NCBI GenBank assembly: GCA_964592485.1
Contig: CAZQEY010000001.1
Coordinates: 456-64,455 of the forward strand
From: an uncultured Planctomycetales bacterium
Lineage (GTDB): Bacteria > Omnitrophota > Gorgyraeia > Gygaellales > JAHJCI01
DNA: 64,000 bases
Direction of reading: 5' to 3'
Positions 1,870-20,623 of the stretch are shown piece after piece. The notes under the pieces were generated by a model, which made no database searches, was not told the origin of the DNA, and was given only the letters and a program-made list of their open reading frames with translations. The position numbers and the translations under genes are program-made. Within the stretch, counting starts at the first letter, position 1; the number at the start of each line of letters is the position of its first letter.

Positions 1870-2742
1870 CTACTGTAACGCTTTCTTCGCTTCTTTGTAT
1901 TTTTCCTTAACAAATTGAGTTATCTTCTCAAGCTGTTCATCTTTACTTAGAGAAAAAAAATGGATATCTTCTAGACTTAAAGAAGCAGAGTAAATCAATT
2001 TGCCTTTTTTACCATAAGCCTCAATTATTATTGAAAGGGGGTTATCATGATATATTCCACAGAAAACTTTACTAGTCTCAATATAGAAACCAGAGTGACC
2101 CCATCCTCCAGATTTTAGTAATTTAAGTGACATCGCCTCAATCGCTACGCCAATCATATTTATAAGATTCTTAAAAGCAGGAAAACCATCAATATATTCC
2201 CACGAAACTTTTTGTACAGTCATGTTTTTCACCTCCAAAAATTTTAAAAACGAGTTTATAAAATACGTGCTAATGGGATTTTTACATTTAAGCTTCAAAA
2301 GCCAGTTTGCAACCTCGAACCAACGTACATGTTTATATGGTTTTTCTTGCTCCTGGTCAAAATCAATAGGAAATCTCGTTAATAAGATAACCTTTTTTAT
2401 AGGTACATTTGATATACTTAAAGCTGTTTTATACCGTTCTATTTGCCTATGTCCTAATCCAGAATCATGCTTAACTTCAATATATATTAACTTATCTGGA
2501 GAAGAGATTTTAATATCTGGCCTGCCCAGTTCTGTTGTTTCTTGTGTTGAAATTACGAGACTTTCATCATTCAAAAAATCAAAATCATTTTCTTTTACAC
2601 ATAGATGCCTCAGAATCTCTATGCAAGCAGAACGATCGCTCTCAAGCAGGGAATTAAGCACGAAAACAAAAGACTCTGTGAGATAGTTCTCGTCTACTGC
2701 TGAATTGTATTTTGATAAACTCGTGAATATATTATTAACCAT
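1870..2742 (-). CDS. PD-(D/E)xK nuclease superfamily protein; the track ORF is 1870..2790 but the start is likely the Met at 2742
   Basis: Motif ELGRPDIKISSPDKLIYIEVKHDSGLGHRQIERY (PD...E-V-K plus QxxxY). The first 16 codons of the track ORF overlap a strong hairpin terminator, so the second Met (MVNNIF...) is the more plausible start. Confidence 0.5.
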   Translation of the reverse strand: MVNNIFTSLSKYNSAVDENYLTESFVFVLNSLLESDRSACIEILRHLCVKENDFDFLNDESLVISTQETTELGRPDIKISSPDKLIYIEVKHDSGLGHRQIERYKTALSISNVPIKKVILLTRFPIDFDQEQEKPYKHVRWFEVANWLLKLKCKNPISTYFINSFLKFLEVKNMTVQKVSWEYIDGFPAFKNLINMIGVAIEAMSLKLLKSGGWGHSGFYIETSKVFCGIYHDNPLSIIIEAYGKKGKLIYSASLSLEDIHFFSLSKDEQLEKITQFVKEKYKEAKKALQ

Positions 2743-2754
2743 TTTTAGTGACCT

Positions 2755-2806
2755 ATAAAAACAAAAAACCTTTGCCTTCTTCGCAGGCAAAGGTTTTGCT
2801 TTTTGT
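2755..2806. terminator. Bidirectional rho-independent terminator
   Basis: An 11-bp perfect stem aacctttgcct / aggcaaaggtt with a 7-nt loop, flanked by an A-run upstream and ttgctttttgt downstream. Confidence 0.5.
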
Positions 2807-4765: not shown

Positions 4766-6445
4766 TTAATCATCTTCATCGCAACTATAAATATTATATT
4801 GTTTACCATAATCCCTGACATTGGGGTCTTGCGTAGCTTCCTCGCGAATTGGCTCGTCCTCGTCATCATCGCCGTTTAGATCGATCCATTTCGTTCCTTT
4901 TCTTTCTATATTTTCACGGCAAGCTCTTACAGCCATCTCCAAGGCATCCGGGCCATCATCGTGAGGGCCTTTCGGAAAATATCCCAATTGTACAAGAAGC
5001 TCTGTGTGTCTTTTGGAAAACTGAATCCTTCCGCTTTTAATAAGCACCTGCAGTGATTGAATCCTGGCGAGTTTATCCGTAGTATTGTTCAATTCTTCTA
5101 TAGGAGGATAGACTCCTCCTCTCGCCCCTTCATTTTTGATTGCATCTACCAATATGACTTGGAATTGATTTGACTCAAAGAAAAATTTGTTATAGTTACG
5201 TATCTTGCAGTATTCAAGGATGTCTTCGGTCAGTCTATCAGGCAGTCTTTTTGCAATATCAGCATCAATTACATAGATTATCCCCGTATTCTTATCGCGA
5301 GCTATCGTAATTATTGCGGAATAATCTCCTTGTCTTCCTTGCTTGCCAAGGCTTGGGTCACAGGCTCCAAATACCTCAAGGTCAAGTCCTGATGTCCGCA
5401 GTAATTCATCTACAGATGAATGATCTTTATCCCAATAGTAGAACTCATCTGGATTAAAATGGCGCTCTTTGGAGTTAACGGGTTCGTTCTGTTTCTCGGA
5501 ATCGAAACTCCATTCGCCTTCCTGTTCCCTTATCTCCATTAAAGTATAATAATCTTCTTGTTCAGGCCAAAGCACTCTTGTTCCTTCGAGCATTGCCTCT
5601 TTGTTATCAAGGTAGAAGGCATAGGCGGCTTCCTTTCCGCCTTTATCCTGATAAGTATCCCTGAAATTGAAGACAGCTGACCATTTCTGCCAAAGCTCAG
5701 GATGAGTCGACCAAGAGATAATGGCTTTATATTTCTTCTTACGCCAGCCAGGCATTTCATTATCCCGAAGTAGCTTTGCAAGCAGTGAATCGTAATGCAA
5801 AATTGTGCCAATGACTATGACATTCGTCTTAGGAGAACCCGCTTTAAGCACGGCCTTGGTAAACCAATCGTAAATCTTCTGGCGCATCTCCTGGCGAACC
5901 ACGTGCTCATCTCCTTCTATATCATCTGCGATAATCAATGATGGCCTTCCCTCCTTGTGGCGCCTTCCGCGTATCTTTTGGCCTGAACCGAGACTGGTGA
6001 CTTTAACGCCATTAGGGGTAATGATCTCGTTTTTCTTCCAGCATCTAGGCTTTGGGGAATCGTCTATAACGCATATCTCAGGGAAATCCTCGATTAATTT
6101 TTGATTGTTCTCCAGCTCGTATTTTATATGCGAAAGGTTATCCACTGCCTGATCCCTGGTCTCTGAAAGAAGCAGAATGTATTCTTCCTTCTTAAAGCAT
6201 ATGCACCAGAGAGTGTAAATAACGCTAACAATTGAACTCTTGGCATTGTCCCTGGGCGCTGCAACTGCTACGCGCTCATTACGCTTATTGCTTATCTCAA
6301 ACAGTAATTGATATATCTCCTCATGCATAGAGCAATCCGGCTTCTTACGATAGTGCTCGAAATAGATTTGAGCGAAAAGCCTGGGAGATTTCTCCGCCAG
6401 GTGCTTACGTAAATTTTTAATGCTATTGTTTATCTTCTCTGGCAT
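4766..6445 (-). CDS. Phage terminase large subunit (Terminase_6-like ATPase plus RNase H-fold nuclease)
   Basis: Walker A-like VAVAAPRDNAKSS (compare PRGHGKS), Walker B LIIADDIEGDE, C-terminal nuclease FGACDPSLGK...DYSAIITIARD. Confidence 0.7.
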   Translation of the reverse strand: MPEKINNSIKNLRKHLAEKSPRLFAQIYFEHYRKKPDCSMHEEIYQLLFEISNKRNERVAVAAPRDNAKSSIVSVIYTLWCICFKKEEYILLLSETRDQAVDNLSHIKYELENNQKLIEDFPEICVIDDSPKPRCWKKNEIITPNGVKVTSLGSGQKIRGRRHKEGRPSLIIADDIEGDEHVVRQEMRQKIYDWFTKAVLKAGSPKTNVIVIGTILHYDSLLAKLLRDNEMPGWRKKKYKAIISWSTHPELWQKWSAVFNFRDTYQDKGGKEAAYAFYLDNKEAMLEGTRVLWPEQEDYYTLMEIREQEGEWSFDSEKQNEPVNSKERHFNPDEFYYWDKDHSSVDELLRTSGLDLEVFGACDPSLGKQGRQGDYSAIITIARDKNTGIIYVIDADIAKRLPDRLTEDILEYCKIRNYNKFFFESNQFQVILVDAIKNEGARGGVYPPIEELNNTTDKLARIQSLQVLIKSGRIQFSKRHTELLVQLGYFPKGPHDDGPDALEMAVRACRENIERKGTKWIDLNGDDDEDEPIREEATQDPNVRDYGKQYNIYSCDEDD

Positions 6446-7133
6446 GGTTATCCGCCTCTTTATCGTTTTCGTTTATTTCGTTTGTTTTCTCTTTGGTCAA
6501 TTGTGTAATGTCCTTGGCTATTCCAGCCTGTTCAATGCGCATCTTAAGCGCGTTTATTCTGCCTTTTACTGCCTCATCCAAGACACCATTGTCAGTAGCT
6601 ATTTTCTCTAAAGTAATTAATTCTTCTTTTAACTCAACAAGGGTCTTTTCTTCATCTTGAGAATCATCGTGATGATAGATATTACTGATTATCTTCTGAG
6701 GTGCAGAAGGTAGATATCCTAAATTTTGCAGGCGTTCTACAGTCTGATTTTGAATTTCCCAGGCAAGGCGCTCGGCATTAATTCTTTCCTGCAAAGAGCC
6801 TTCACTTGAACGGGCAACCCGCATAAGATGCGCCACTTGTGACTTTGACTTGGTAATTAACTCGGCAATGAATTGCAAGGCTATTTCAGTAGTGGGTCTT
6901 TTAGAATTTCGCTGCCAGATATCCTCAAGGTCACGCTTGATAGTTTTCTCGCTCCTATCCAGTAACTGGGCAATAGCTGAGACAGAATAGCCTTCAAGAA
7001 TTAAAACTTCCACGCATTCTTGACGAGCCTCTTTGAATAAATCTTTTGCCTGTAGCATGCCATCTTTTATTTGTTTTAAAGTTTTATAGACTGGGATTTC
7101 TTCTTTGTTTGTAATTTGGTTATTATTTTCCAT
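6423..7133 (-). CDS. HTH DNA-binding protein (sigma-70 region 4-like), possibly the terminase small subunit
   Basis: ILEGYSVSAIAQLLDRSEKTIKRDL resembles a sigma70 r4 HTH. It sits immediately upstream of, and overlaps by 23 nt, the large terminase gene. The C-terminus is acidic. Confidence 0.4.
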   Translation of the reverse strand: MENNNQITNKEEIPVYKTLKQIKDGMLQAKDLFKEARQECVEVLILEGYSVSAIAQLLDRSEKTIKRDLEDIWQRNSKRPTTEIALQFIAELITKSKSQVAHLMRVARSSEGSLQERINAERLAWEIQNQTVERLQNLGYLPSAPQKIISNIYHHDDSQDEEKTLVELKEELITLEKIATDNGVLDEAVKGRINALKMRIEQAGIAKDITQLTKEKTNEINENDKEADNHAREDKQ

Positions 7134-7153
7134 ATTTAAATTACCTCTTTTTC

Positions 7154-8458
7154 TTATTTACCTATATATTTTTCAACCAACTCTTTTGAGACCTTATCTT
7201 CACCGACTGCCTTAATGTAGCGTTTGACTATGCCATCACAATAATAAGGATCGATTTCTATGCCAAAGCAAGTGCGGCTTAACATCTCAGCAGCAATCAA
7301 AGTTGTACCTGAGCCTAAGAAGACATCCATGACGATATCTTCTCTTTTTGAGCTATTTTTTATGGCTCTTGCAGCTAAAGCTATGGGCTTCTGAGTTGGA
7401 TGAATATAACTTGCCGTGTGATCACGTTTAACTTGCCAAAGAGTTGTTTCATTTACCGGCCCATACCAATTATGCACACCGTTATCTTCTTTCCAGCCAT
7501 ACATGCAGAATTCCGTCTGCTGATTATAATCGCCATAGCCTAAAGCGAAGCTCTCCTTTGCCCAGATTATTACGCAGGAAACATGATAACCGAGCCCTGT
7601 AAGCATCAGATACATCGGCCCAAATTGCTTATGGCCGTTCCAGAGATAGAAGCTTGAGCCTTTTTCAAGGTAAGGCGTAATATTGGTAAGGATTTGTTTC
7701 AGCCAGACTTCGTATTCTTCCTGAGTTAAGTTATCATTGTAAATTCTTTCCCAATTTTTTCCTCCTGTAGGCCGAGACTCTCTTGGATCAGGTCTATCGC
7801 CACCATAATAGTCAACGTTATAAGGTGGATCCGTAAAAATAAGATTTACTTTATTATTGCCTGTGAGTTTTGCTACGTCTTCAGGTTTTGAAGAATCACC
7901 GCAAAGGAGCTTGTGGCTGCCAAGTTCAATCAAGTCGCCTTTTTGAGTTACTGCTTCATCTTTATTAATCTCATCTTCAATATTGAAATTGTCTTCCTTT
8001 ATTTCTTCAGCCCTATCTAGGATTTGGCTTATTTCAGAAACGTCAAAGCCAGTCAAGACAACATCTAAATCTTGAGTTTTATTCAACTCGTTTAAAAGCA
8101 AAGCTAATTTCTCATCATCCCAATCGCCCCTTATCTTATTCAAAGCTAAATTGAGTGCTTTTTCTTTCTCAAGAGGTAAGTCAACTATGCTTGCCTCAAC
8201 TTCAATTAATCCCTGTCCAATAAGAATTTTCAGCCTCTGATGGCCGCTTACTAAATTGCCGGTTTGCCGATTCCAAACTAGCGGCTCAACATAACCAAAA
8301 GAATCGATACTGTTCTTAAGTTTTTCATATTCAGCGTCACCCGGCTTTAGATTAACTCGCGGGTTATATGCCGCGGGATTGATTTTTGAAATTGATATTT
8401 TTTGAATGTTCATTTTATTTCCCTCCTTATTTGTGAATTTAATCTTGGTCTTTCTCAT
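7154..8458 (-). CDS. ParB-like nuclease domain fused to an N6-adenine/N4-cytosine DNA methyltransferase (beta class)
   Basis: N-terminus ISKINPAAYNPRVN...SGHQRL (ParB-like). C-terminus IFTDPPYNVDY (motif IV DPPY) followed later by FLGSGTT (motif I), which is the beta-class order. This is the usual phage orphan methyltransferase next to terminase genes. Confidence 0.8.
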   Translation of the reverse strand: MRKTKIKFTNKEGNKMNIQKISISKINPAAYNPRVNLKPGDAEYEKLKNSIDSFGYVEPLVWNRQTGNLVSGHQRLKILIGQGLIEVEASIVDLPLEKEKALNLALNKIRGDWDDEKLALLLNELNKTQDLDVVLTGFDVSEISQILDRAEEIKEDNFNIEDEINKDEAVTQKGDLIELGSHKLLCGDSSKPEDVAKLTGNNKVNLIFTDPPYNVDYYGGDRPDPRESRPTGGKNWERIYNDNLTQEEYEVWLKQILTNITPYLEKGSSFYLWNGHKQFGPMYLMLTGLGYHVSCVIIWAKESFALGYGDYNQQTEFCMYGWKEDNGVHNWYGPVNETTLWQVKRDHTASYIHPTQKPIALAARAIKNSSKREDIVMDVFLGSGTTLIAAEMLSRTCFGIEIDPYYCDGIVKRYIKAVGEDKVSKELVEKYIGK

Positions 8459-8711: not shown

Positions 8712-8756
8712 TAAAAAAAGAAAAAAGGCCAAAAAATTTAATTATTTTTTGGCCTT
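8712..8756 (-). terminator. Rho-independent terminator ending the six-gene DISARM-like operon
   Basis: A 12-bp stem aaggccaaaaaa / ttttttggcctt followed on the minus strand by a long T-run. It lies ~190 nt after the 803-aa ORF stop. Confidence 0.55.
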
Positions 8757-8943
8757 TGGATACTTTATTTAACTTATTTATTTAGAAAGAGTTATGGGAA
8801 GAATAGTTTTCGTTAATTTTAAAAAATATATTGTAGATTTTAATTTCTGTATATTTTTAATATAACCTGTTGTAGAATAATAAGATAGGTATTATTTCTG
8901 GAGGATTTTGCTGTCTAAAGAATTAAATTAGGGAACCCCTTTT

Positions 8944-11355
8944 TTACATTTTTACGGTAAATTTCTTAGAAAGTAGCCGCAAAATTAGCTTCTGCTTTAG
9001 TAAAATGCGGTATTTTATCTCTAATACATTTCTTCCTTCATGAAATCTAATATAGTCTCGCCGTTGCACTTGCGGCAAATATTTTTCATATTTCTTGAAG
9101 ACTTTAATTACAAGTTGTTTTGCAATTCTATTCCACTTCTTCCCCCGTGACGATAAAGTTGCTATCCCATATTTCTCAAGAATAGCCGAAATATCGGCTT
9201 CATACTCTACCAATCTTTCAGAACAAATAACCCTTTCGTAACGTGCCGCATTCTCAATCAAGGAAATTTCCCCGGAACTCAAAATATTCTCAATCGGTTC
9301 CAGGATATTCTTTCCATATCTAAAGGGGTGAATAATGGGCAGAAAATTCTCCTGCTCTATTATAATCTTCGCAAGGTACTCCCATTTTTGCATATGAGTC
9401 TTGTTTTCTATTTTAAAATTACGTCCTATTAGACTTTGCATCTGGAGTAGATTTAAAAAATGGTATCTATAGAAAAATTTTTCATTCGAATGTAGAATTA
9501 ATTCCTCGCTTAAAAGTTTATCGATAACTTCCTTTAAAGGAGGCTCGCCGATTATCCGGCTTGCTAATTTCTGCTCAAGCTCTTTAATAGTCAAATATTG
9601 ATAATATTTAAGTAATGCAATTACAGTGCTTGCTAAAACTTTTTCCTTTCCTGTATCTTTAACTGCTGTTCCTGGAGTCAACTGGAACACTGGAATATTC
9701 TCTTTAAGGCGCATATTTTTAAGGGCGCAACTCTGGGCAAAGAAGGTTTTCCACATTCTCTCAGAAGACAACTCAAAAAGTTTTTGAAGATTTGGGTCGG
9801 TATATGTCTCCCTGTCCCAGCATATAAAAAATTTATTGCCAAAAATATCTTCAAAAAGAGAGGTAGGCTCATCGAATTCCCTAACATCTTTTTGAAGCAA
9901 TCTCCCGCATCCGGAAAAATATCTGCTCAGCTCTAAATGACCCCGCCAAAGATTCTGATCCATATTCAAGAAAAATGAACAAAGTTTAAATTCATCAACT
10001 AACATTTTTTCGCAAGTAGGTATACCTGCAAGGGTAAGTAAGCCTTCTTTAATTTCAGCTCTCTTAGAGCGCGCTATGAGAAATTCTGTGCGTGGAGTAA
10101 GCCTTGCTCTCCCTATATAAGGCATAATTCTCCACTGAGTCAGCAATATACTAGCAGGCCACTTTGCTGAACTCATATCTCTTATAATTGGATAAGTAGT
10201 TTTACAGCCAGCCATTATTTCTATCTCAGGGAATATAATTTTATAGTAATTGCTCCCTTGGTATTGTTTTTTTGCACTTGCTGAGGCATCAATTATGATT
10301 CCAAGCAATTCAGGAGGTAAGCCATTATCTCTTAATTCCTTAAAATCTATAGCCGATGGCAGGCGTGCTTTTAAATAATCTAAAAACTGCATGGGCATAG
10401 CGTTTAATTCATAACTTGCATTGGCAAAATGTACAAGTTTCTCTCTTAAACTCAAATCACTTATAGCTTCCCAGTCGCAAAATTGAATTACTTCAAAAAA
10501 TTTTTTTGTTTTTTCTTGGCTGCGCAAAAATTCTGAGTATATACCTTTAAAAATATCTGACACTGCTCCAGCAAATTGGACAATTTCGATATTTTTTTCA
10601 GCCGTAGGAGAACCTTCAATTAAGTCAATATCTAAACAGCCAAATGCAGATTTAAGCAACTCTATATCTGATTTGTAATAAATTAAAATTTGCCCAAACT
10701 GAGCAAGGGGTAATTCCTTATATATGTAATGGTAGTGAGGTCCTGGCAGCCATATGTTAGTGTGTTTCAGGAAAACAAAATCTCCGCAAACCTGAAACAA
10801 TTCCCTTGCAGGGAATGATCTCCCGTGAGCCTCTACCAAAGCATTTGTTTTATCTTTCACTTCCTCTAACTCACACTCGCCTGCTCTAAATAACATAGTA
10901 GCTAATCCATATTTATAGGCCAAAAGAGAATTTTCCCTGGCAAAAACCTTATGTTTCCCTAGCCTTTCTTTAATTTTGCAGGTTTTCAGCGACCTAGAAA
11001 CTGGAGAAAAGTAATGCCAATTATCCCCGCTGCCATCTGCAGGAATCGGAATTTCATAGAGCCTAAAGGGGCTCGCTTGAACTTCGCCTTTTATTGCTTT
11101 TGGCAAATGATTGGCTTTTTCTTGCAAACTTAAAGTTTTCACTCTAAGCCGCGCAAGTTCTAACGCAGCTTCTTCTGCCTTAGCTCTTGAGATAACTAAC
11201 TCGGGTCCTTTTATATATTTCCTTAAAAGTGGCGGGAGGCAAGAAAGGTCTAAATGGGTATCAAATAGAAACCTACACCTTTTAACTTCTACAGCTTGGT
11301 AATCTTCAAGGATTTTCTCACTATTTGCATTTTGAGATAATGTAGCCATGTTCAA
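8944..11355 (-). CDS. 803-aa protein of unknown function; last gene of the DISARM-like operon, possible DrmE-like accessory component
   Basis: Its start overlaps the upstream PLD gene by 35 nt, which suggests translational coupling. No recognisable catalytic motif and no TM segments. Confidence 0.5.
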   Translation of the reverse strand: MNMATLSQNANSEKILEDYQAVEVKRCRFLFDTHLDLSCLPPLLRKYIKGPELVISRAKAEEAALELARLRVKTLSLQEKANHLPKAIKGEVQASPFRLYEIPIPADGSGDNWHYFSPVSRSLKTCKIKERLGKHKVFARENSLLAYKYGLATMLFRAGECELEEVKDKTNALVEAHGRSFPARELFQVCGDFVFLKHTNIWLPGPHYHYIYKELPLAQFGQILIYYKSDIELLKSAFGCLDIDLIEGSPTAEKNIEIVQFAGAVSDIFKGIYSEFLRSQEKTKKFFEVIQFCDWEAISDLSLREKLVHFANASYELNAMPMQFLDYLKARLPSAIDFKELRDNGLPPELLGIIIDASASAKKQYQGSNYYKIIFPEIEIMAGCKTTYPIIRDMSSAKWPASILLTQWRIMPYIGRARLTPRTEFLIARSKRAEIKEGLLTLAGIPTCEKMLVDEFKLCSFFLNMDQNLWRGHLELSRYFSGCGRLLQKDVREFDEPTSLFEDIFGNKFFICWDRETYTDPNLQKLFELSSERMWKTFFAQSCALKNMRLKENIPVFQLTPGTAVKDTGKEKVLASTVIALLKYYQYLTIKELEQKLASRIIGEPPLKEVIDKLLSEELILHSNEKFFYRYHFLNLLQMQSLIGRNFKIENKTHMQKWEYLAKIIIEQENFLPIIHPFRYGKNILEPIENILSSGEISLIENAARYERVICSERLVEYEADISAILEKYGIATLSSRGKKWNRIAKQLVIKVFKKYEKYLPQVQRRDYIRFHEGRNVLEIKYRILLKQKLILRLLSKKFTVKM

Positions 11356-12160
11356 TCTCAGTAGACTTGTCCCATATAATATTAAATAGCCGCGTAAGTA
11401 CTTTTGCTTTATTTGCGGATTTAATAACCGCCCCTACTTCAAAATTATTGCAGAGCGCATTAAGCCTTATTTCTGCACTGCCAATATATACTTCTTTTAT
11501 TCCGCTTATAATCAGTTTTGCGTGAAGAGCTTCCACAACACTCTTCCTGCCCTTACTACTTTCTGCTATATACGAATAATTGGCGATTGAAATGTTTTTG
11601 CCAAAAAATGAAATAAGGTCATATAAACCTAAAATTTGGCTCACTGAGGGATTATCTATATCATCTATCCTGGTAATTAACCTAACAGAAACTTTTTGAT
11701 TTGCCGCCCGGCTAAATGCCTTTTCTAAATATTGAACTCCTCCCCTGTCCAGAAATGGCGAACAGATAAGCAACTCTGACTTACAGGAAGATATAATCTC
11801 GCTAATTAAATCTCTTATCTTCTGAATATTTAGAGTAGAAAGCGATTGCCTCAAAGAACTATGTAGCGTCGTAGCAATAAAGCAATTTTCAGAAACTTCT
11901 TTCGCATCGAGTGGCTTTATTTTTTTAATTTCTTTAGGAGGATGCGCAATTGTATCAGGGACTTTTGCTGCAATTAAACTCACCTTACTTCTTTCGAAAT
12001 CCGGATTATCTTCAATTATTGCCAAAGCTTCTGAGCCCATAAGTTGAAAAATTAACTCGCGCGCCTCTGGAGGCTTCATGCCTTTAGAAACAAAAAACTC
12101 AGTAAGCTGCCTAATTTCTAGAGGCCATTTCAAGCTAATTAATTCTCTTACGCCAGGCAT
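11321..12160 (-). CDS. Phospholipase D-family (HKD) nuclease; DrmC-like
   Basis: HKD motif LHAKLIISG...GSAEI (HxK...GSxN). 279 aa. It overlaps the upstream gene by 13 nt. Confidence 0.7.
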   Translation of the reverse strand: MPGVRELISLKWPLEIRQLTEFFVSKGMKPPEARELIFQLMGSEALAIIEDNPDFERSKVSLIAAKVPDTIAHPPKEIKKIKPLDAKEVSENCFIATTLHSSLRQSLSTLNIQKIRDLISEIISSCKSELLICSPFLDRGGVQYLEKAFSRAANQKVSVRLITRIDDIDNPSVSQILGLYDLISFFGKNISIANYSYIAESSKGRKSVVEALHAKLIISGIKEVYIGSAEIRLNALCNNFEVGAVIKSANKAKVLTRLFNIIWDKSTEIEHGYIISKCK

Positions 12161-13794
12161 TTATCCCAATATCCTATATTTTTACTTATAGTAACTACTA
12201 ATTTTCTGTCTAAGTTTGCATTGAACATTTCATTACATGACCTCTCAGCAATATATAAACACCCATGACACGCGGACGGTACATGAGCTTCGCATAAAGG
12301 GTCATAGGGGCAATTCTCTGCAGCATGCCTTGTTTTATGGAGCCAATTATACATCTGCGATTCAAAAGTTGACTTTAAAGCGCCTAACTCTGTGCCTTCA
12401 GTGCTGAAAATCACAAAAGACATTGCTGGGGTAAATACCATTTCCCCTAAGTTATCTCTGGATATTCCGCTAAAAATTTCACTCTGCCTGATCATGAGGT
12501 GGCTAATTGTATGAAGGAGAGTTTTTACTGCGGAAGGAATATCTCCTGCACAATCTCCGCTAGAAGTTAGCAAGATTTTCCGCAGTGATTTTTCATCCAA
12601 TTCTTTTCCTGATTTATTCAGCCAATTTACTACTCTTGCAGGTGACAATTCTACAAGGAGCGCCTCACTTTCATAACACCTCGTTAAGACATTATAATTC
12701 CCATACCCGGCATCAAATAATTGTAGTTTGGAATTAGCTTCATCTGTAGAGCCAACAAGGTAGCCATATACCATTGTTACTAGAGGTATACGGTCCAGGT
12801 AAAACAATTTTAACCCAAAATCTTTTTCTACCTTTGATGCCTCTGCCTCACTTAGCTTGCCGTCAAAAGCTATATGTGAGGTAGCGCCTTTATATTCGGA
12901 AAGCAGCCTCCTTACATTGAAAGAAATCTCTCCTATTTCCTCCCGGATAATTTCCTCTCGAGACCTCTCGCTGGGGTGCTTCTCTTTATAATCGGCAATC
13001 ATCTTTTCCTTGAAACTCTCATCAGCTTCCATATTCCGTTGAGCTATTTCTCTCATTGGCTCTGGCAAATCTCCCAGAATTTTCTCTTCAAGAGTGCCGC
13101 CCTCAAATCTAAACCACGAATCTATACACTCTTCCCAGCCCGAACCTACATCTACAGCGTTTATAGACATAGGCTTTATAGCAGAAGCTGCTGGCATAGG
13201 CTTCATTTTAACTCTATCGTCAGTTGAGCAATTACATAAATAGCTAAGGTGAACTTTAGTTTTGCAATTTGGGCAAAGCCATGTTGACTTAGCAAAATTC
13301 TCTTTCACAAGGTAAAGTTCAAAATAACTTTTCTTACATTCGTAACATAGCTTAGGTTTAATTTCCTGAATATTTCCGCATTGAGGGTGAGTAAATATGT
13401 GGACAATTTGCGAGAGCGAACTTTTACAATTTGGGCATATAAAGTCGCTTTCTTTAATATCTTTCTTCTTTTGCAAATCGTACACTTTATTGCACTGCGG
13501 GCATAAGAATGACGCCGGCGCTAACTCGGGGTCAATACTTCTATATTCTCTAAATTGAAATTGCCTCTTTGCAGGTAGCCGCTTACCTTTCCCTTCTGTA
13601 AGTCCCATTTCATGCCTGCATATCCTCTGTGTAATTATCCTTTCAAGCCTTACTTCATCGCGGACTTTTGCATTAGATAGAATTCGCTCATAATTATTCC
13701 CTGCCTTGCACATTATATCCCGAACGAGAAAATAAGCATTCGGGAATGCATAAAACAAAGCAGCAGATATACTCATTTCATTTCTCTTTATCAT
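12148..13794 (-). CDS. Cys-rich zinc-ribbon protein, DUF1998-like; DrmB-like
   Basis: Two N-terminal CxxC...CxxC zinc ribbons (CPQCNKV...CPNCKSS and CYECKKS...CPNCKTK) and a C-terminal CPYDPLCEAH...CHGC cluster. Its ATGA start overlaps the stop of the helicase gene. Confidence 0.55.
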   Translation of the reverse strand: MIKRNEMSISAALFYAFPNAYFLVRDIMCKAGNNYERILSNAKVRDEVRLERIITQRICRHEMGLTEGKGKRLPAKRQFQFREYRSIDPELAPASFLCPQCNKVYDLQKKKDIKESDFICPNCKSSLSQIVHIFTHPQCGNIQEIKPKLCYECKKSYFELYLVKENFAKSTWLCPNCKTKVHLSYLCNCSTDDRVKMKPMPAASAIKPMSINAVDVGSGWEECIDSWFRFEGGTLEEKILGDLPEPMREIAQRNMEADESFKEKMIADYKEKHPSERSREEIIREEIGEISFNVRRLLSEYKGATSHIAFDGKLSEAEASKVEKDFGLKLFYLDRIPLVTMVYGYLVGSTDEANSKLQLFDAGYGNYNVLTRCYESEALLVELSPARVVNWLNKSGKELDEKSLRKILLTSSGDCAGDIPSAVKTLLHTISHLMIRQSEIFSGISRDNLGEMVFTPAMSFVIFSTEGTELGALKSTFESQMYNWLHKTRHAAENCPYDPLCEAHVPSACHGCLYIAERSCNEMFNANLDRKLVVTISKNIGYWDKCLA

Positions 13795-16700
13795 TTCTTC
13801 AGCTCCTCTAAATCTTCATCTTCTCCAGTTTCTTCTCTTTCTACTTCTGTTTCTTCATCTACCGGCGCTTCTTTTACATTAATTTTCGCTAAGCCCGCTC
13901 GCTTTGCTGCTTCTACTGCAGAGTTATACTTTACCTCAACTTGCGGCTGAATATTTCGAAGGCTATAACGAAATTTGCCTTGGCTTTTAAAAGGGTCTGT
14001 TATAAATGAACTTGGATTTTCTTTAACAGCTTCCTTAAAGTATTCCCAAAAATCCTCAATTTTTTCCTCATATGCTCCGCTGCCATCATCTTGAGAGCGG
14101 TAAATGCGTTTAAGAATTCCCAGCATTTCCTTTTCAGGAAAGCCACTTTCTAAAGCATCTCTTACTCTATTGCACCAGCGGAAATCTTGCCCCATCTTTG
14201 GTCCAAAATGGAACAAAAGCAAAGAGACAACAATGTTATTAAATGTTTGGTCTATTGCTGTGCGCGCAAATCTATTCAGAGGAATACCTTCAAGTATTTT
14301 ATCAGCAGTATGTACAAATGGACTCCAATATGTATAATATGAAACATCTCTGTCCTTATTGGGGCCGAGGACTGCTAAACAGAAAGCAGGTTTTCTCCGA
14401 CCTGTCCTGTTAAGAGTCTGGATGAATTCGCTTACATTAGAAGGAAGGCCAAAGAAAAATATGCTATTAAGATTCTCTATATCAATGCCTATAGAGGCGA
14501 TGTTTGTTGCATATATAAGTTCTTGCTGACGATTTTTTATTTTCTCTACAACTGAAGCCACCTTTTCTTCTTCAAAGTGCCTGCCAGAAAGCTCAACATA
14601 GCGCAGTGGAGGCGACCCTCTCTGTACTCTTTTAGGATTTATAGCATTCTTTATCATTTCCTGAAGGGTGTTTATATTTTTGTATGAAGAACAATAAATC
14701 ATAATCTGAGAAATAGAATAAAGTGGGTGGTTTATGTTAACGTGGCTTATATCAAAGCCGTAAATTTCAGCAAGAGTTTCAAAGTAAATATTACATAAGT
14801 CTGGTATAGCCCATGTTAATGGCCTATCTTGCGGCAATAAAGCAAGGGTTATATGTTTTAATTCGCTCTTCTCTATATAATATGCTCGGCTTTCTTTTTG
14901 GGGAGGCAGAATTATAGATTCTCCCTTGCCTACAAATCCAAGCTGGAACATGTGCCTCTTTATATAAGCAATAGTTGCTGTAGAAACAATAGGAATAGGG
15001 TATACACCAGTGTTTGCTTTGAAGATTTCTGCATAATCTGTCTCTATATGTGAATTTAATGTTCCTTCCGGCCCTCTGATTAAATGGCCTTCATCTAAAA
15101 TCAGAATACCAGGCTTTACTACTTGCTTTGAATTAGATAAGTCTCTCTTACAATCTGGGCAGCGGTTTCCAAGCATATAGCCGTGGTTTGGGCAAAAATA
15201 GGCTTCAATACCTAATAGGTTCCTTAACTTTTGCTGCATGGACCTTGCTATGAATTTATCCCACGTTGCAATCAAAAAACTTGGCACCTGAAAAAATATC
15301 TCATCTCCTATACCTAATGTGAGCCTATGCCCTTTTTCGCATATAAGTTGAGACGCGCCTGCGCAAAACTTTTTTTCTTCTTTCCATTCGCTATTGCAAA
15401 CTCCTCTTCCTGAAATAGGCCTTGGACATTTGCTTATAATATCTTTTGGCGACTCATAGGCCCCCTTCTTGCCAACAAAATATCCTATTCCTGCTGGCTC
15501 TCCTAAAATTTCATCCAAAACAATACTATATCCAGCAAGCCTCCGCGCCTGATCACTGCTTAACAGTGTAACAGGGTATTTGATTATATTAATTGACTTA
15601 GAACCTTTTTGTTTCTCAAAAAAGATAGCCCACATAGCCGCCGAAAGGAAACTCTCTGTTTTGCCTCCAGCAGTTGGAATATTTAGCACTATTGGCTGAA
15701 GATCCATTTTTCCCTTTAGGTAACAACTGGCAGCTACAAGCAAAGTAACTAATTGGTGACAATACCAAGGCACCTCTTTTCCAAAACACCGACCGTATAC
15801 TTCTGATACTTTCTTAAACGCACCCATACCTTGTGGAGAACGCTTAATTTCTTCAGCGCACTCCTTAAGAAAAGAAATATGAGCATCACTAGCTCCTGCT
15901 TTTTCTAATATCGAAATAACTGAATCTATGGCTTCTCCAGGAGCTTCTGCGGCTTCCTTAAATGTGGGGCCTTTCCTGGGTTCTTCCATCTGCGTTTTTG
16001 ACTTAGCAATTGGTGTAAAAATTAGTTCTTTTTCTGTACTTAGCTCTTTATCAAAGGAAATATTAGCACTAAATGCTTCTACATTATAGTCATCCAGAAC
16101 GGGGCATTTAAAATCCATTAGCGAATTCTCTTTTAAGCCAATTTTTATTCTTACATCGAACCAGTTTGACTCTCCAGCCGCCCTGCTTTTGCCGCTATAC
16201 GTGTTCGCCAATATTATAGAGACTAGCGAAGCCCCATCTTCCCTTATTTCAGAATTAACAGCAATACTGCCTTGCCAGTTTGGCGAATCTCCTAAAGATT
16301 TATAACTTTCTCTGAAATCTGCAAGGTCTAATTCTACAAAGTTATTTTCAAGACTGAGCCTAAATGTTTTGGCATAACGCTTTCTAATAAATACAGTCTG
16401 ACTTTGCGCTTCTCCTTTCTCTGGAGCCGGCGCGCTCTGACTAGAATGTGTTCCGTTAACCGGTGATTGAGATAGTCTTTCTCTCCAATCTTTCCATATT
16501 TCATCTTCTTTTATCTCATCAGCTAATCCTCTTAAGTCTTGCAAAACTTTACCTTTTAACGGCGCCTTTGCCCGAAAGTACAGCGTAAAAGAGGGAGTAA
16601 TACTTATATCCTTAAGCTCCCCCTGTACTCTAAATTGCACCTTACAAGAGCTAGGTGCAACTTTACTTTTATATTCAAAGTTTCTCCTATTTGAGTCAGA

Positions 16701-16850
16701 TTCTGAGGCTGGAAACAACATCCCTGTATTAAACTTATCAGAAGGCAGTGAATCTGTTACTAATCTTTGGCTATCGCAATTGCCAAGCACTCTTTTAATA
16801 AAACTATCTGAAAAATCAATTACCGCTTTTGAAAGTTGATCTTGAAACAT
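13791..16850 (-). CDS. Large SF2 helicase (1019 aa); DrmA-like
   Basis: Walker A NIPTAGGKTESFL, motif II ILILDEGH (DEGH), motif III STATIA, motif VI QTLNRTGRR. There is an ~350-aa N-terminal domain of unknown function. Confidence 0.7.
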   Translation of the reverse strand: MFQDQLSKAVIDFSDSFIKRVLGNCDSQRLVTDSLPSDKFNTGMLFPASESDSNRRNFEYKSKVAPSSCKVQFRVQGELKDISITPSFTLYFRAKAPLKGKVLQDLRGLADEIKEDEIWKDWRERLSQSPVNGTHSSQSAPAPEKGEAQSQTVFIRKRYAKTFRLSLENNFVELDLADFRESYKSLGDSPNWQGSIAVNSEIREDGASLVSIILANTYSGKSRAAGESNWFDVRIKIGLKENSLMDFKCPVLDDYNVEAFSANISFDKELSTEKELIFTPIAKSKTQMEEPRKGPTFKEAAEAPGEAIDSVISILEKAGASDAHISFLKECAEEIKRSPQGMGAFKKVSEVYGRCFGKEVPWYCHQLVTLLVAASCYLKGKMDLQPIVLNIPTAGGKTESFLSAAMWAIFFEKQKGSKSINIIKYPVTLLSSDQARRLAGYSIVLDEILGEPAGIGYFVGKKGAYESPKDIISKCPRPISGRGVCNSEWKEEKKFCAGASQLICEKGHRLTLGIGDEIFFQVPSFLIATWDKFIARSMQQKLRNLLGIEAYFCPNHGYMLGNRCPDCKRDLSNSKQVVKPGILILDEGHLIRGPEGTLNSHIETDYAEIFKANTGVYPIPIVSTATIAYIKRHMFQLGFVGKGESIILPPQKESRAYYIEKSELKHITLALLPQDRPLTWAIPDLCNIYFETLAEIYGFDISHVNINHPLYSISQIMIYCSSYKNINTLQEMIKNAINPKRVQRGSPPLRYVELSGRHFEEEKVASVVEKIKNRQQELIYATNIASIGIDIENLNSIFFFGLPSNVSEFIQTLNRTGRRKPAFCLAVLGPNKDRDVSYYTYWSPFVHTADKILEGIPLNRFARTAIDQTFNNIVVSLLLFHFGPKMGQDFRWCNRVRDALESGFPEKEMLGILKRIYRSQDDGSGAYEEKIEDFWEYFKEAVKENPSSFITDPFKSQGKFRYSLRNIQPQVEVKYNSAVEAAKRAGLAKINVKEAPVDEETEVEREETGEDEDLEELKK

Positions 16851-17532
16851 TATTCAAACTCCTTTTTCCATAGTTACAAAAATTTTGTAAAACGCACCTT
16901 TGGCATTTCGGAAACTGATTACGGCAGCAGTCGCGCCCAAGACTAATGCAATTAACATGATACGAATATCTTTTCTGAAGAGGTATTAATTTTTCTAACC
17001 TGTGGTGCGCCTCTGCTAAACTAATATGCTGAGGAATCAAACCTAACCTACATGAAATCCTGAAGACGTTAATATCAACTGGCAAAACACCCCTGCTCAA
17101 TGAATACATTAAAATACAGTAGGCCGACTTAATACCAAGCCCCGGCAAACCCATTAAGTAGTCTAATGCCTCCGGAGTTTCTAATTTTTTAAGCCAGGCC
17201 AAACTTACTATTCCTCTATCCTTATAAATCTTTTTTATCAAGTTCTTTATTTGCCCTGCCTTTTGATTTTCAAGACCGCTCGATTTAATTACATTAGCTA
17301 TATTCTTTATTGGCATCTTCAATATATTTTTCCAGACTTTACATTTGCCTTTTAATTTTTTGTACGCCTCGGAAAATCTCTGTCCGTCAGTTTGTTTTGA
17401 TAGTATTATATAAATGGCTTCATCAAGCGGATTACTCTTGTTCCCATGTCTTGAATTTCCATATTTTTCAAGTCTGCGAATTATCTTATAAATGTCTTTC
17501 CGGGAGGATACTTTCTTAATCTTAACTTTCAT
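16816..17532 (-). CDS. HhH-GPD / endonuclease III-family DNA glycosylase with a [4Fe-4S] loop
   Basis: HhH motif LPGLGIKSAYCIL...PVDINVFRI. C-terminal C-x6-C-x2-C-x5-C (CRNQFPKCQRCVLQNFC) is the Nth/MutY iron-sulfur signature. It lies 16 nt after the methyltransferase gene and overlaps the helicase start by 35 nt. Confidence 0.75.
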   Translation of the reverse strand: MKVKIKKVSSRKDIYKIIRRLEKYGNSRHGNKSNPLDEAIYIILSKQTDGQRFSEAYKKLKGKCKVWKNILKMPIKNIANVIKSSGLENQKAGQIKNLIKKIYKDRGIVSLAWLKKLETPEALDYLMGLPGLGIKSAYCILMYSLSRGVLPVDINVFRISCRLGLIPQHISLAEAHHRLEKLIPLQKRYSYHVNCISLGRDCCRNQFPKCQRCVLQNFCNYGKRSLNNVSRSTFKSGN

Positions 17533-17548
17533 AGTCTAACTATAAAAT

Positions 17549-18472
17549 TCATTTGGGAAATGGACTAATAACTGCTTTTGCAACTGATGGGGACACTGCA
17601 TTGCCTATTTGCCAATATTTTGCCTCTAAAGAATCTTCTACCTTAAAATTATCCGGAAAACTCTGAATCCTTGCACATTCTTTCCACGAAAGTCTTCTAT
17701 GCCTAGACCCTTTGGGTAATATCCATTTATCTTCGCTCACATATACCATTGGCTTGCCCATTGGATGAAGAGGTACATGCCTCCAATTTGCCAAAATACA
17801 GTAACTTACTTCATCCCAACCACGTTTTCTATTTCTTGAAAGATAATACCATGGGAAACCTTCATCATAAAACTCACCTTCTGGCCACCTGGGTAAATCC
17901 CATATAGAATCTCGAAGAGTCACGTAATTTTTTAACCCTGGGCCATGAGTTGGTTTAGGGAATGTATATTGAAAGTCTACACTTTTTTTTACTCCGACAA
18001 TAAATATTCTCTTCCTATCCTGCGGAACCCCAAAGTCTTTAGCATCTAATACTTCCCATTTAACTGCATACCCAGCTGCTCTATAAGCTTTTAGCTGGTT
18101 CTTTAAAAATCTTCCATTATAGAGAACTGCCATACCATTTACATTTTCTGCTATGAAAAATTTTGGCTTTATTGTTTTTATACATCTAAGAAACTGCCTG
18201 TAAAGGTAATTTCTTTCATCAAATGATTTTCTATTCCCTCCCACACTGAAACCTTGGCAAGGATAACAACCTACAGCCATATCTGCCTTAGGAAAATTCT
18301 TTACATTATCAATATCGCCACGAAAGAATTCAACCTCTGGAAAGTTTGCTATATAAGATTTTGCTGCGGGAGGATATATATCATTAGCCCATATGATTTT
18401 GTGACCTGCTAGCTTAACCCCGAAATCAAAACCGCCACAACCAGAAAATAAAGATATAACTTTTAAAGGCAT
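17549..18472 (-). CDS. DNA (cytosine-5)-methyltransferase; DrmMII-like
   Basis: Motif I FSGCGGFDFG, motif IV GCYPCQGFS (PCQ), motif VI ENVNG, motif X QIGNAV. Confidence 0.85.
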   Translation of the reverse strand: MPLKVISLFSGCGGFDFGVKLAGHKIIWANDIYPPAAKSYIANFPEVEFFRGDIDNVKNFPKADMAVGCYPCQGFSVGGNRKSFDERNYLYRQFLRCIKTIKPKFFIAENVNGMAVLYNGRFLKNQLKAYRAAGYAVKWEVLDAKDFGVPQDRKRIFIVGVKKSVDFQYTFPKPTHGPGLKNYVTLRDSIWDLPRWPEGEFYDEGFPWYYLSRNRKRGWDEVSYCILANWRHVPLHPMGKPMVYVSEDKWILPKGSRHRRLSWKECARIQSFPDNFKVEDSLEAKYWQIGNAVSPSVAKAVISPFPK

Positions 18473-18790: not shown

Positions 18791-19252
18791 ATGACCGTGA
18801 AAGAAAAATTGCAATCCGAGATAGAAAAACTAAATAATGCAACTTTTGAACAAGTTCAAGAAAAATATCATGAGCTTTTTGATGTTAAAGAGATACCTTG
18901 TGGCAATAAAAGTTACTTGCTAAAGAGAATTATTTACAAATTACAAGAAATCGAATATGGCGGTTTATCAAAAGAAGCTAAAAATAAAATTGAAGAATTA
19001 ACTAAAGAATTCGATCCTATTAATAATATTGCTCTCAGGCCAAGCATTCCGAAAGAAAGAGTATTCTTACGAGATAGGCGCCTTCCTATTCCGGGGACAG
19101 TAATCATTAAAGAATATAAAGGCAATAATTTCAAAGTTAAAGTCTTAGAAAGGGGTTTTGAATATAATGGCAAGATTTTTAAATCCCTTACTGCGATAGC
19201 TAAAGAAATAACCGGGGCTCATTGGAACGGATATTTATTTTTTAATCTATGA
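18791..19252 (+). CDS. DUF2924-family protein; the usual partner of large serine recombinases
   Basis: RRLPIPGTVIIKEYKGNNFKVKVLERGFEYNGKIFKSLTAIAKEITGAHWNGYLFF matches the DUF2924 consensus (...ITGtrWNGwrFFgl). Its stop overlaps the recombinase start (ATGA). Confidence 0.5.
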   Translation: MTVKEKLQSEIEKLNNATFEQVQEKYHELFDVKEIPCGNKSYLLKRIIYKLQEIEYGGLSKEAKNKIEELTKEFDPINNIALRPSIPKERVFLRDRRLPIPGTVIIKEYKGNNFKVKVLERGFEYNGKIFKSLTAIAKEITGAHWNGYLFFNL

Positions 19253-20622: not shown

Positions 20623-20623
20623 A

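What the first reader, a model, noticed from the sequence alone, without database searches (positions are those of the whole stretch)
8944..11355. 803-aa orphan protein as the terminal gene of the defence operon
No recognisable motif and no TM segment. It is coupled by a 35-nt overlap to the PLD gene and followed by the operon terminator. It could be a DrmE-like accessory or a novel component such as a sensor or anti-anti-defence factor.
Basis: seen in the sequence. Interest (0 to 1): 0.55.

Follow-up and report, generated by a model that had tools for sequence, protein, structure and literature searches.

The report
New DNA-binding partner of DISARM-like defence
The large unannotated gene at the end of this anti-phage operon encodes a rare, undescribed protein built from predicted DNA-binding modules that always travels with a DISARM-like helicase/nuclease trio and takes the place of, but is unrelated to, the known accessory protein DrmE.

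Summary
The ORF is real. It most likely starts at ATG 11349, which gives 801 aa and a 29-nt rather than 35-nt overlap with the PLD gene. It has no TM segment, and a strong hairpin plus T-run lies 187 nt downstream.

The protein ("X") is not a true orphan. An exhaustive HMM search found 36 clusters among 1.84 billion proteins, a very rare family.

In all 13 genomic contexts examined, X sits next to DrmA-like helicase, DrmB-like and PLD (DrmC-like) genes, either last (A-B-C-X) or first (X-A-B-C). The neighbouring modification module varies: m5C methylase plus HhH-GPD, PAPS-reductase-like, a 7-deazaguanine cluster, or DUF6884. DrmA helicases linked to X form their own branch (100/100 bootstraps).

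X is not DrmE. Two NCBIfam DrmE models and Pfam DrmE_C detect even archaeal DrmE but none of the 37 X-family members. hhalign gives 0.07% probability, against 91% for the positive control.

A confident AF2 model (pLDDT 88.5) shows no recognised enzymatic domain. It contains β-rich N-terminal domains, a helical bundle, a HIN-200-like tandem OB fold, a winged helix, and a basic C-terminal Alba domain that sequence profiles also support.

Best reading: X is the DNA-recognition or recruitment subunit of a distinct DISARM-like subtype and a functional substitute for DrmE. This is a new variant of a known kind, of moderate interest.

The parts
8944..11349 (-). Gene X: 801-aa protein. The ORF extends to a TTG at 11355, but ATG 11349 is the likely start.
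   Evidence: ORF list. Start region. The identical 801-aa protein is in the database and homologues start at the same position. AF2 model pLDDT 88.5, pTM 0.85.
10615..11298 (-). X residues ~18-245: a small alpha/beta N-terminal domain (18-80) plus a beta-rich domain (95-245), possibly further OB-like barrels. The 18-80 part is missing in most members of the X-first subfamily.
   Evidence: Secondary structure of the AF2 model. Domain coverage per family member. Long multi-OB alignments to BRCA2, TEBP and RPA. Boundaries are inferred from secondary structure only.
10327..10590 (-). X residues ~254-341: helical bundle.
   Evidence: AF2 secondary structure.
9679..10308 (-). X residues ~348-557: two beta-barrels joined by two helices (HIN-200-like tandem OB). 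This is the most conserved part of the family, with motifs WRxxPYxGR (406-414), GIPxxE (442-447), FFLDLD (459-464), SRYF (475-478), P495/D501/G504/F507.
   Evidence: Foldseek against PDB: 35 hits with E<=1e-3, nearly all HIN-200 (AIM2, IFI16, p202, p204), BRCA2, TEBP-alpha or RPA; probability 1.0; TM on target ~0.4. Conservation. Assigning the hits to these residues is my inference from the OB1/two-helix linker/OB2 pattern.
9469..9648 (-). X residues ~568-627: winged-helix-like unit (H-H-H-beta-beta).
   Evidence: AF2 secondary structure. Inferred; no specific database hit.
8962..9252 (-). X residues ~700-796: Alba-fold domain (beta-alpha-beta-alpha-beta-beta), net charge +14, with a conserved SxRG loop at 733-736.
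   Evidence: Family profile against PDB: Alba 1nh9_A E=3.5e-4, 2h9u E=1.2e-3, and 12 other Alba or SpoVS chains. Pfam Alba in 4 of 37 members. Foldseek to Alba 8xap: TM on target 0.81, rmsd 1.7 A. Charge.
8714..8757 (-). Intrinsic-terminator-like hairpin plus T-run that ends the operon.
   Evidence: AAAGGCCAAAAAATAATTAAATTTTTTGGCCTTT followed by TTTCTTTTTT. Sequence read.
11321..12160 (-). DrmC-like PLD nuclease; its 3' end overlaps the start of X by 29 nt.
   Evidence: Pfam PLDc_2 E=9e-11. PADLOC DrmC E=2e-12. NCBIfam DISARM_DrmC_I 37.7 bits, below its cut-off of 133.
12148..13794 (-). DrmB-like protein (OB-CON-DUF1998 type, Cys-rich).
   Evidence: PADLOC DrmB E=4e-28. NCBIfam DrmB_fam E=1e-14, 54 bits, below its cut-off of 240.
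13791..16850 (-). DrmA-like SF2 helicase with GGKT and DEGH motifs.
   Evidence: PADLOC DrmA E=4e-35. NCBIfam DISARM_DrmAS E=1e-34, 120 bits, far below its cut-off of 950. Pfam Helicase_C. Motifs read from the translation.
16816..17532 (-). HhH-GPD protein, probably a T:G mismatch glycosylase or nickase that partners the m5C methylase. It is conserved next to the m5C-type systems.
   Evidence: Pfam HhH-GPD E=8.5e-11. PADLOC 'Type II nicking endonuclease' E=4e-14. The same gene is present in L002, L005 and L006.
17549..18472 (-). C5 cytosine DNA methyltransferase (DrmMII-like modification module).
   Evidence: Pfam DNA_methylase E=2e-70. PADLOC DrmMII E=2e-58.

Best explanation
X is the fourth, non-enzymatic, nucleic-acid-binding subunit of a distinct DISARM-like restriction cassette (DrmA-like helicase, DrmB-like, PLD nuclease, X).

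Shown: (1) X belongs to a very rare family that is always encoded beside this trio. (2) The helicases linked to X form their own branch. (3) X is unrelated in sequence to DrmE and never co-occurs with it. (4) Its confident model consists of beta-barrels (a HIN-200-like tandem OB), a winged helix and a basic Alba domain, with no recognised catalytic domain.

Inferred: X binds DNA through the OB pair, the winged helix and the Alba domain. It acts as the target-recognition or loading factor that brings or licenses the DrmAB translocase and the PLD nuclease on invading DNA lacking the host mark. This would be the job that the essential but uncharacterised DrmE is presumed to do in class 2 DISARM. 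The same X architecture is paired with chemically different modification modules (m5C, PAPS-reductase-like, 7-deazaguanine, DUF6884). X therefore more probably recognises DNA structure or ends, or holds the complex on DNA, than reads one particular base modification.
For: Synteny: the window and L001, L002, L003, L005, L006, L013, L014, L015 and L017 carry the full A-B-C trio next to X. On short contigs, L004 and L007 have PLD upstream, L012 has a DEAD helicase downstream, and L016 has a DUF1998 protein upstream.

Rarity: 36 clusters among 1.84 billion representatives. No hit in plasmid, phage, viral-contig or species-representative genome collections.

Phylogeny: all eight X-linked DrmA proteins form one bipartition in 100 of 100 NJ bootstraps, separate from DrmE-linked, class-1 and other DISARM DrmAs.

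Structure: pLDDT 88.5 with 37 sequences. Foldseek hits HIN-200, BRCA2, TEBP, RPA and Alba. Alba is supported by sequence. The Alba region has net charge +14.

DrmE context: DrmE is essential in class 2 DISARM and of unknown function (bioRxiv 10.1101/2021.12.28.474362; PMC9142583). The closest annotated relatives of this DrmA, on haloarchaeal plasmids, carry DrmE upstream.

Parallel: the DISARM-like helicase DpdJ carries a fused wHTH-HTH-ALBA tail (bioRxiv 10.1101/2025.09.15.676423).
Against: No experiment and no complex prediction supports either DNA binding or an interaction with DrmAB.

The HIN/OB similarity is fold-level only (TM ~0.4, rmsd 7-9 A, ~10% identity). I mapped it onto residues 348-557 from secondary structure, not from coordinates.

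The most conserved residues include acidic and histidine positions (E447, D462/D464, D501, H674) that could form an unrecognised active site.

The DrmA, DrmB and DrmC matches are all far below NCBIfam curated cut-offs, so the analogy with DISARM is itself a step removed.

Only 13 contexts were seen, all from metagenomes.
Confidence: 0.55

Rival explanations
1. X is a highly diverged DrmE: a true homologue whose sequence similarity has been erased, with the same fold and function as class 2 DISARM DrmE.
For: Its size is similar to DrmE (650-840 aa). It has the same partners (DrmA/B/C plus a C5 methylase). It is mutually exclusive with DrmE in the loci seen. X lies directly upstream of drmA in L012, L014 and L017, as DrmE does. 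Proteins in the DrmE position are themselves very divergent; the L. plantarum 801-aa protein at that position matches no DrmE model.
Against: NCBIfam NF038316 and NF038323 and Pfam PF24957 detect bacterial and archaeal DrmE but none of the 37 X-family members. hhalign of the X family against DrmE alignments gives 0.06-0.18% probability, while Bacillus against archaeal DrmE gives 91% (E=1e-6). The X HMM with filters off gives negative scores on DrmE. DrmE profiles show no Alba signal against PDB.
Confidence: 0.12
2. X is a cryptic enzyme, for example a nuclease or DNA-modification-dependent effector. Its active site would be formed by the invariant polar residues of the 440-510 region plus H674, making X the real effector of the system. 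This would fit the finding that DrmC is dispensable in studied DISARM systems.
For: The strongest conservation in the family falls on E447, D462/D464, R476, D501 and H674-P675. The local alpha-beta-beta-beta-beta-alpha pattern at 444-527 is not incompatible with a nuclease-like core. DrmC is not required for defence in class 1 or class 2 DISARM.
Against: No nuclease or other enzyme family appears among the top 50 Foldseek PDB hits or in any HMM library for 37 members. The same region is better explained as OB1/linker/OB2 of a HIN-like unit. A PLD nuclease is already encoded in every locus.
Confidence: 0.15
3. X is a transcriptional or post-transcriptional regulator of the operon, acting through its winged helix and Alba domains, and not a component of the restriction machinery.
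For: Winged-helix and Alba domains occur in regulators and RNA-binding proteins. One member weakly hits a metalloregulator model.
Against: At 800 aa with six or seven domains it is far larger than defence-island regulators. It is translationally coupled to drmC in several loci, with overlaps of 29, 32, 4 and 1 nt. It co-evolves with the helicase.
Confidence: 0.06
4. X is an unrelated passenger or mobile-element gene that merely sits next to the defence operon.
For: The island lies in a phage-like mobile element with a terminase, a ParB-methylase and a serine recombinase.
Against: All 13 contexts keep X beside DrmA/B/C although the flanking genes differ completely. No X relative was found in phage, plasmid or viral collections.
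Confidence: 0.02

Closest known systems
DrmE of class 2 DISARM (NCBIfam NF038316/NF038323, Pfam PF24957)
   Same: A large (650-840 aa) accessory protein with no enzymatic annotation, encoded with drmA, drmB, drmC and a C5 methylase. DrmE is essential for defence and its mechanism is unknown. In one X subfamily the gene occupies the same position, just upstream of drmA.
   Different: No detectable sequence or profile similarity, although positive controls work. In the window X is the last gene, after drmC. X has an Alba domain detectable by sequence; DrmE profiles show none.
DpdJ, the DISARM-like YprA helicase of Dpd systems (C-terminal wHTH-HTH-ALBA extension; Bell et al. 2025, bioRxiv 10.1101/2025.09.15.676423)
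   Same: An Alba-like domain preceded by a winged helix and helical units, attached to a DISARM-clade helicase system. X residues 568-796 have the same order (winged helix, helices, Alba). One X locus (L014) lies beside a 7-deazaguanine/TGT-like gene set, as in Dpd.
   Different: In Dpd the module is fused to the helicase; here it is on a separate 800-aa protein that also carries OB barrels. No PADLOC or NCBIfam Dpd model hits X. Homology was not tested directly because no DpdJ sequence was at hand.
HIN-200 domains of AIM2, IFI16, p202 and p204 (mammalian cytosolic DNA sensors)
   Same: Best structural matches (E 5e-6 to 1e-3, probability 1.0). Both have two OB folds joined by a two-helix linker, a unit that binds the DNA backbone without sequence specificity in an innate-immune context.
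   Different: TM only ~0.4, rmsd 7-9 A, ~10% identity, and no sequence-level signal. BRCA2, TEBP-alpha and RPA OB arrays score similarly, so this is a generic tandem-OB resemblance and not evidence of common descent.
Alba/Sso10b chromatin proteins (Pfam PF01918)
   Same: The C-terminal ~95 residues share the beta-alpha-beta-alpha-beta-beta fold and the basic RG loop. Support comes from the profile (E=3.5e-4), Pfam (4 members) and Foldseek (TM on target 0.81).
   Different: Here it is one domain of a large bacterial defence protein and not a small stand-alone archaeal or eukaryotic chromatin or RNA-binding protein.

Membership tests
DISARM DrmE | Match to curated DrmE models (NCBIfam NF038316 DrmE_fam, NF038323 DISARM_DrmE; Pfam PF24957 DrmE C-terminal domain) | tested here: not met
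   X and all 36 relatives have no hit at E<=0.01. The same models detect Bacillus and haloarchaeal DrmE at E=3e-11 to 9e-38.
DISARM DrmE | Remote homology by profile-profile comparison | tested here: not met
   hhalign of A2 against DrmE alignments or sequences gives 0.06-0.18% probability. Control: Bacillus DrmE_C against archaeal DrmE gives 91%, E=1e-6.
DISARM DrmE | Encoded immediately upstream of drmA in a drmE-drmA-drmB-drmC-drmMII operon | tested here: not met
   In the window X follows drmC. The X-first order is seen only in the distant subfamily (L012, L014, L017).
DISARM DrmE | Same three-dimensional fold as DrmE | not tested
DISARM DrmE | Required for phage defence | not testable with these tools
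   Needs a deletion and plaque assay.
DISARM DrmD (SNF2 helicase) | SNF2/helicase ATPase domains | tested here: not met
   No helicase or ATPase family hit in Pfam, NCBIfam or PADLOC. The model has no RecA-like domain among its top matches.
DISARM system (for the operon that X belongs to) | Core triplet: separate helicase (DrmA), DUF1998 protein (DrmB) and PLD nuclease (DrmC), adjacent and co-directional | tested here: met
   PADLOC DrmA 4e-35, DrmB 4e-28, DrmC 2e-12; Pfam Helicase_C and PLDc_2. All scores are far below NCBIfam equivalog cut-offs (120 vs 950, 54 vs 240, 38 vs 133 bits), so this is a divergent DISARM-like clade.
DISARM system (for the operon that X belongs to) | Associated DNA methyltransferase (class 2: C5 methylase DrmMII) | tested here: met
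   C5 MTase at 17549-18472: Pfam 2e-70, PADLOC DrmMII 2e-58. In other X loci it is replaced by a PAPS-reductase-like gene, DUF6884 or a 7-deazaguanine gene set.
Alba domain (PF01918) | Sequence-profile match and beta-alpha-beta-alpha-beta-beta fold with a basic RG loop | tested here: met
   Applies to the C-terminal domain only. X alone does not reach Pfam significance.
HIN-200 / PYHIN DNA sensors | HIN domain homology (tandem OB) detectable by sequence, and DNA binding | tested here: inconclusive
   There is fold-level similarity only and no sequence signal. DNA binding cannot be tested here.

The most novel reading that the evidence does not exclude
DrmA-like, DrmB-like, PLD and X form a self-contained, portable 'restriction core'. 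It has been wired to at least three or four chemically unrelated self-marking modules: 5-methylcytosine, a PAPS-reductase-type modification, 7-deazaguanine, and DUF6884. X would be a prokaryotic HIN-like/Alba DNA sensor that decides whether DNA is attacked. This would be a new class of DISARM-like immunity whose discrimination subunit is built on the same tandem-OB principle as the mammalian AIM2 and IFI16 sensors.
Probability: 0.25. Interest if true: 0.75.

Novelty: new variant of a known kind. Interest (0 to 1): 0.5.

Why it matters
How DISARM recognises foreign DNA is still open. DrmE is essential in class 2 systems, yet nothing is known about what it does.

This DISARM-like clade replaces DrmE with a protein whose domains can be read (tandem OB, winged helix, Alba). 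That gives a concrete hypothesis that can be tested: the accessory slot is a DNA-binding or recognition subunit.

The family is absent from Pfam, NCBIfam, PADLOC and PHROGs. Current annotators will therefore call these loci 'class 2 DISARM without DrmE' and miss a conserved component.

The cassette is also paired with several different DNA-modification modules. If that holds, it is a natural example of modular exchange between the restriction and modification halves of a defence system.

Tried and rejected
- **Single-sequence searches of X.** Pfam, NCBIfam, PADLOC (up to E=10) and PHROGs gave nothing.
- **Word-indexed protein search.** It found only 3 proteins. Repeating it with the 37-sequence profile returned only 2 and wasted the last search.
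- **First AF2 run with 3 sequences.** The model was unusable (pLDDT 32). It became reliable only with the 37-sequence alignment.
- **Collection scans for X.** tblastn of X against plasmids and phages found no relative. Pattern scans of genome, viral and metagenome contig collections with A1 or A5 found none. A2 and A3 were too divergent for that tool.
- **B. cereus plasmid DrmA hit.** It turned out to be class-1-like and had no DrmE.
- **L. plantarum pMK02.** The 801-aa protein in the DrmE position matches neither DrmE nor X.
- **att-site search.** No convincing direct repeats were found around the island.
- **Readings rejected.** DrmD or SNF2 (no ATPase), passenger gene (synteny), membrane protein (no TM).
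Full report
**1. Observation**

The minus strand carries an open frame at 8944..11355 (803 codons from TTG). The sequence at its 5' end reads TTG AAC ATG GCT. The identical database protein (P0001, 801 aa) and the two closest homologues begin at that ATG. I therefore take 11349 as the start, which shortens the overlap with the upstream PLD gene (stop codon at 11321-11323) from 35 nt to 29 nt.

The same short overlap or abutment between the PLD gene and X recurs in relatives: 29, 32, 4 and 1 nt in L002, L001, L013 and L015. This fits translational coupling.

A 14-bp GC-anchored hairpin followed by TTTCTTTTTT lies at 8757-8724, 187 nt past the stop. No 19-residue window exceeds a Kyte-Doolittle mean of 0.99, so there is no TM segment.

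The six co-directional genes are:
- C5 methylase, 17549-18472
- HhH-GPD protein, 16816-17532
- DrmA-like helicase, 13791-16850
- DrmB-like protein, 12148-13794
- PLD/DrmC-like nuclease, 11321-12160
- X, 8944-11349

The island has lower GC and GC3 than the flanking housekeeping genes. It sits between a terminase/ParB-methylase block and a serine-recombinase block next to tRNA-His. The host is probably a Candidatus Omnitrophota bacterium, since its RNase PH is 79% identical to that of Omnitrophota MAGs.

**2. X is rare but not an orphan**

The word-indexed search found only the protein itself, an 84% relative and a 40% relative. A filter-only HMM search of 1.84 billion cluster representatives with these three sequences found 36 clusters, 21 of them below E=1e-30. 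Most are 640-840 aa long and align over nearly the whole length.

None of the 37 sequences matches any meaningful model in PADLOC, NCBIfam or Pfam, with one exception: Pfam Alba hits four members. No relative exists in the plasmid, phage, viral-contig or species-representative genome collections at the sensitivity of those tools.

**3. Genomic context**

Every context I could retrieve has the DISARM-like core beside X.

| Arrangement | Loci |
|---|---|
| m5C-MTase, HhH-GPD, A-B-C-X (positions of the first two vary) | window, L002, L005, L006 |
| A-B-C-X, contig ends upstream | L001, L003 |
| PLD-X on short contigs | L004, L007 (upstream fragments match the window's DrmC at 5e-25 and 7e-29) |
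| PAPS-reductase-like, then A-B-C-X | L013, L015 |
| DUF1998 fragment, 189-aa ORF, X | L016 |
| X-A-B-C | L014, L017 |
| X-A, contig ends | L012 |

In L014 the X-first arrangement lies next to QueC, GCHY-1, PTPS, Q_salvage and a weak TGT-like gene. In L017 it is preceded by a DUF6884 protein.

Genes outside the cassette differ completely between loci.

A neighbour-joining tree of 15 DrmA-like helicases puts all eight X-linked ones on one side of a single split in 100 of 100 bootstraps. On the other side are DrmE-linked (Bacillus, three haloarchaea), class-1-like (B. cereus) and other DISARM helicases. Inside the X group, the subclades follow gene order and modification module. X therefore marks a distinct DISARM-like lineage. 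It is not a sporadic insertion.

**4. X is not DrmE**

The libraries do contain DrmE models: NCBIfam NF038316 (838 positions), NF038323 (785 positions) and Pfam PF24957.

These models recognise:
- a split Bacillus DrmE (3e-19);
- the annotated Haloplanus DrmE (9e-38);
- unannotated proteins in the DrmE position in Haloferax volcanii pHV1 (3e-15) and Haladaptatus (3e-11).

These haloarchaeal systems hold the closest annotated relatives of the window's DrmA (E down to 3e-43). None of the 37 X-family members hits any DrmE model.

Profile-profile comparison of the X family against DrmE alignments gives probabilities of 0.06-0.18%. The positive control, Bacillus DrmE_C against archaeal DrmE, gives 91% (E=1e-6). 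The X HMM with all filters off scores DrmE proteins below zero.

**5. What X looks like**

With three sequences AF2 failed (pLDDT 32). With the 37-sequence alignment it gave pLDDT 88.5 and pTM 0.85, with 510 residues above 90.

The order of elements is:
- 18-80: a small alpha/beta unit
- 95-245: a beta-rich region
- 254-341: a five-helix bundle
- 348-427: a seven-stranded barrel
- 430-452: two helices
- 460-557: a second barrel with inserted helices
- 568-627: a helix-helix-helix-beta-beta winged-helix unit
- 634-690: helices
- 705-783: a beta-alpha-beta-alpha-beta-beta unit with a final helix

Foldseek against PDB returned 35 hits at E<=1e-3. Almost all are HIN-200 tandem OB domains (AIM2, IFI16, p202, p204, MNDA) or other OB arrays (BRCA2, TEBP-alpha, RPA). 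Alba and SpoVS follow, with TM on target up to 0.81 and rmsd 1.7 A.

The HIN similarity is topological: TM ~0.4 and ~10% identity. I assign it to residues 348-557 because that stretch has the pattern OB1, two-helix linker, OB2 and the right length. This is an inference, because the tool does not report query ranges.

The Alba assignment has independent support. The family profile finds Alba 1nh9 at E=3.5e-4 and a dozen further Alba chains over the full domain, aligning X's SSRG loop with Alba's ARG loop. Pfam Alba also hits four members. The Alba segment has net charge +14.

Family conservation peaks in the tandem-OB region: W406, R407, P410, G413, G442, P444, E447, F459, D462/464, W468, G470, R476, P495, D501, G504 and F507. 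H674-P675, G728, G736 and R763 are also conserved.

No catalytic family appears in any search.

**6. Mechanism**

Shown: X is a conserved subunit-like partner of a DISARM-like helicase/DUF1998/PLD trio, and it is built from modules that elsewhere bind nucleic acids.

Inferred: X binds DNA and acts as the recognition or loading factor for the DrmAB translocase and the PLD nuclease. This would fill the slot held by DrmE in class 2 DISARM. DrmE is essential there but mechanistically unknown.

The X architecture stays constant while the modification module changes (m5C, PAPS-reductase-like, 7-deazaguanine-associated, DUF6884). I therefore favour recognition of DNA structure or ends, or tethering, over reading of one specific modified base.

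A published parallel exists. The DISARM-clade helicase DpdJ carries a fused wHTH-HTH-ALBA tail (Bell et al. 2025), the same order as X residues 568-796. [quoted passage not shown]

Rivals:
- A fold-level DrmE homologue (0.12).
- A cryptic enzyme using the conserved E/D/H residues (0.15). This is worth testing, because DrmC is dispensable in studied DISARM systems.
- An operon regulator (0.06).
- A passenger gene (0.02).

**7. Verdict**

This is a new variant of a known kind of system, defined by an undescribed protein family. Interest is moderate (0.5). It offers a readable handle on the unexplained accessory slot of DISARM and a possible case of one restriction core serving several modification chemistries. 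Everything about function remains inference.

Noticed in passing
window 16816-17532 (-); also L002 1235-1930, L005 9678-10346, L006 12517-13245: An HhH-GPD protein accompanies the C5 methylase in all four m5C-type X loci with enough flank, although its position in the operon varies. It hits PADLOC 'Type II nicking endonuclease' at 4e-14. It is probably a T:G mismatch glycosylase or nickase that repairs 5mC deamination, a Vsr analogue. It is not a canonical DISARM gene.
   Followed up: partly
L013 3383-4447, L015 457-1575, L014 1-5756, L017 161-1471: In other X-type loci the methylase is replaced by a different module. L013 and L015 have a PAPS-reductase-domain protein; L013 also has HMUDK_hel and thymidylate-synthase genes nearby. 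L014 has a QueC/GCHY-1/PTPS/Q_salvage cluster plus a weak TGT-like protein, reminiscent of Dpd. L017 has a DUF6884 protein. This suggests interchangeable self-marking modules.
   Followed up: partly
window 4766-8458 (-) and 18791-21414: The defence operon sits in a phage-like mobile element. On one side are a large terminase (4766-6445), an HTH/small-terminase-like protein (6423-7133) and a ParB-N6/N4 methylase (7154-8458). On the other are a phrog_11806 protein, a large serine recombinase (19249-20622) and a recombinase-associated protein, abutting tRNA-His (21341-21414). GC3 is lower than in housekeeping genes. No att repeats were found.
   Followed up: partly
window 1870-2790 (-): A 306-aa ORF with no PHROG hit contains a PD-(D/E)xK-like motif (GRPDIKI...IYIEVKHD). 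It is possibly another nuclease or defence gene at the edge of the island.
   Followed up: no
L009 4596-7001 (L. plantarum pMK02); L098 10139-12142; L099 10440-11594: The accessory slot of DISARM-like systems is generally variable. L. plantarum has an 801-aa protein in the DrmE position that matches neither DrmE nor X. Haladaptatus adds a pentapeptide-repeat protein after drmC, and H. volcanii pHV1 adds an HNH endonuclease there.
   Followed up: partly
L002 9892-11367; L001 7141-7665; L004 2971-3513: The genes just downstream of X differ among close relatives: a DUF4062 + HATPase_c_4 protein in L002, and unannotated 174-aa and 180-aa proteins in L001 and L004. They may be additional defence genes of the same islands.
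   Followed up: no
window 32138-32545 (-): ARAGORN calls a tmRNA gene with an unusually long tag peptide (ANTQVSRLGTTLQSPVMAGPMFLPVFGLN). This is unrelated to the finding.
   Followed up: no
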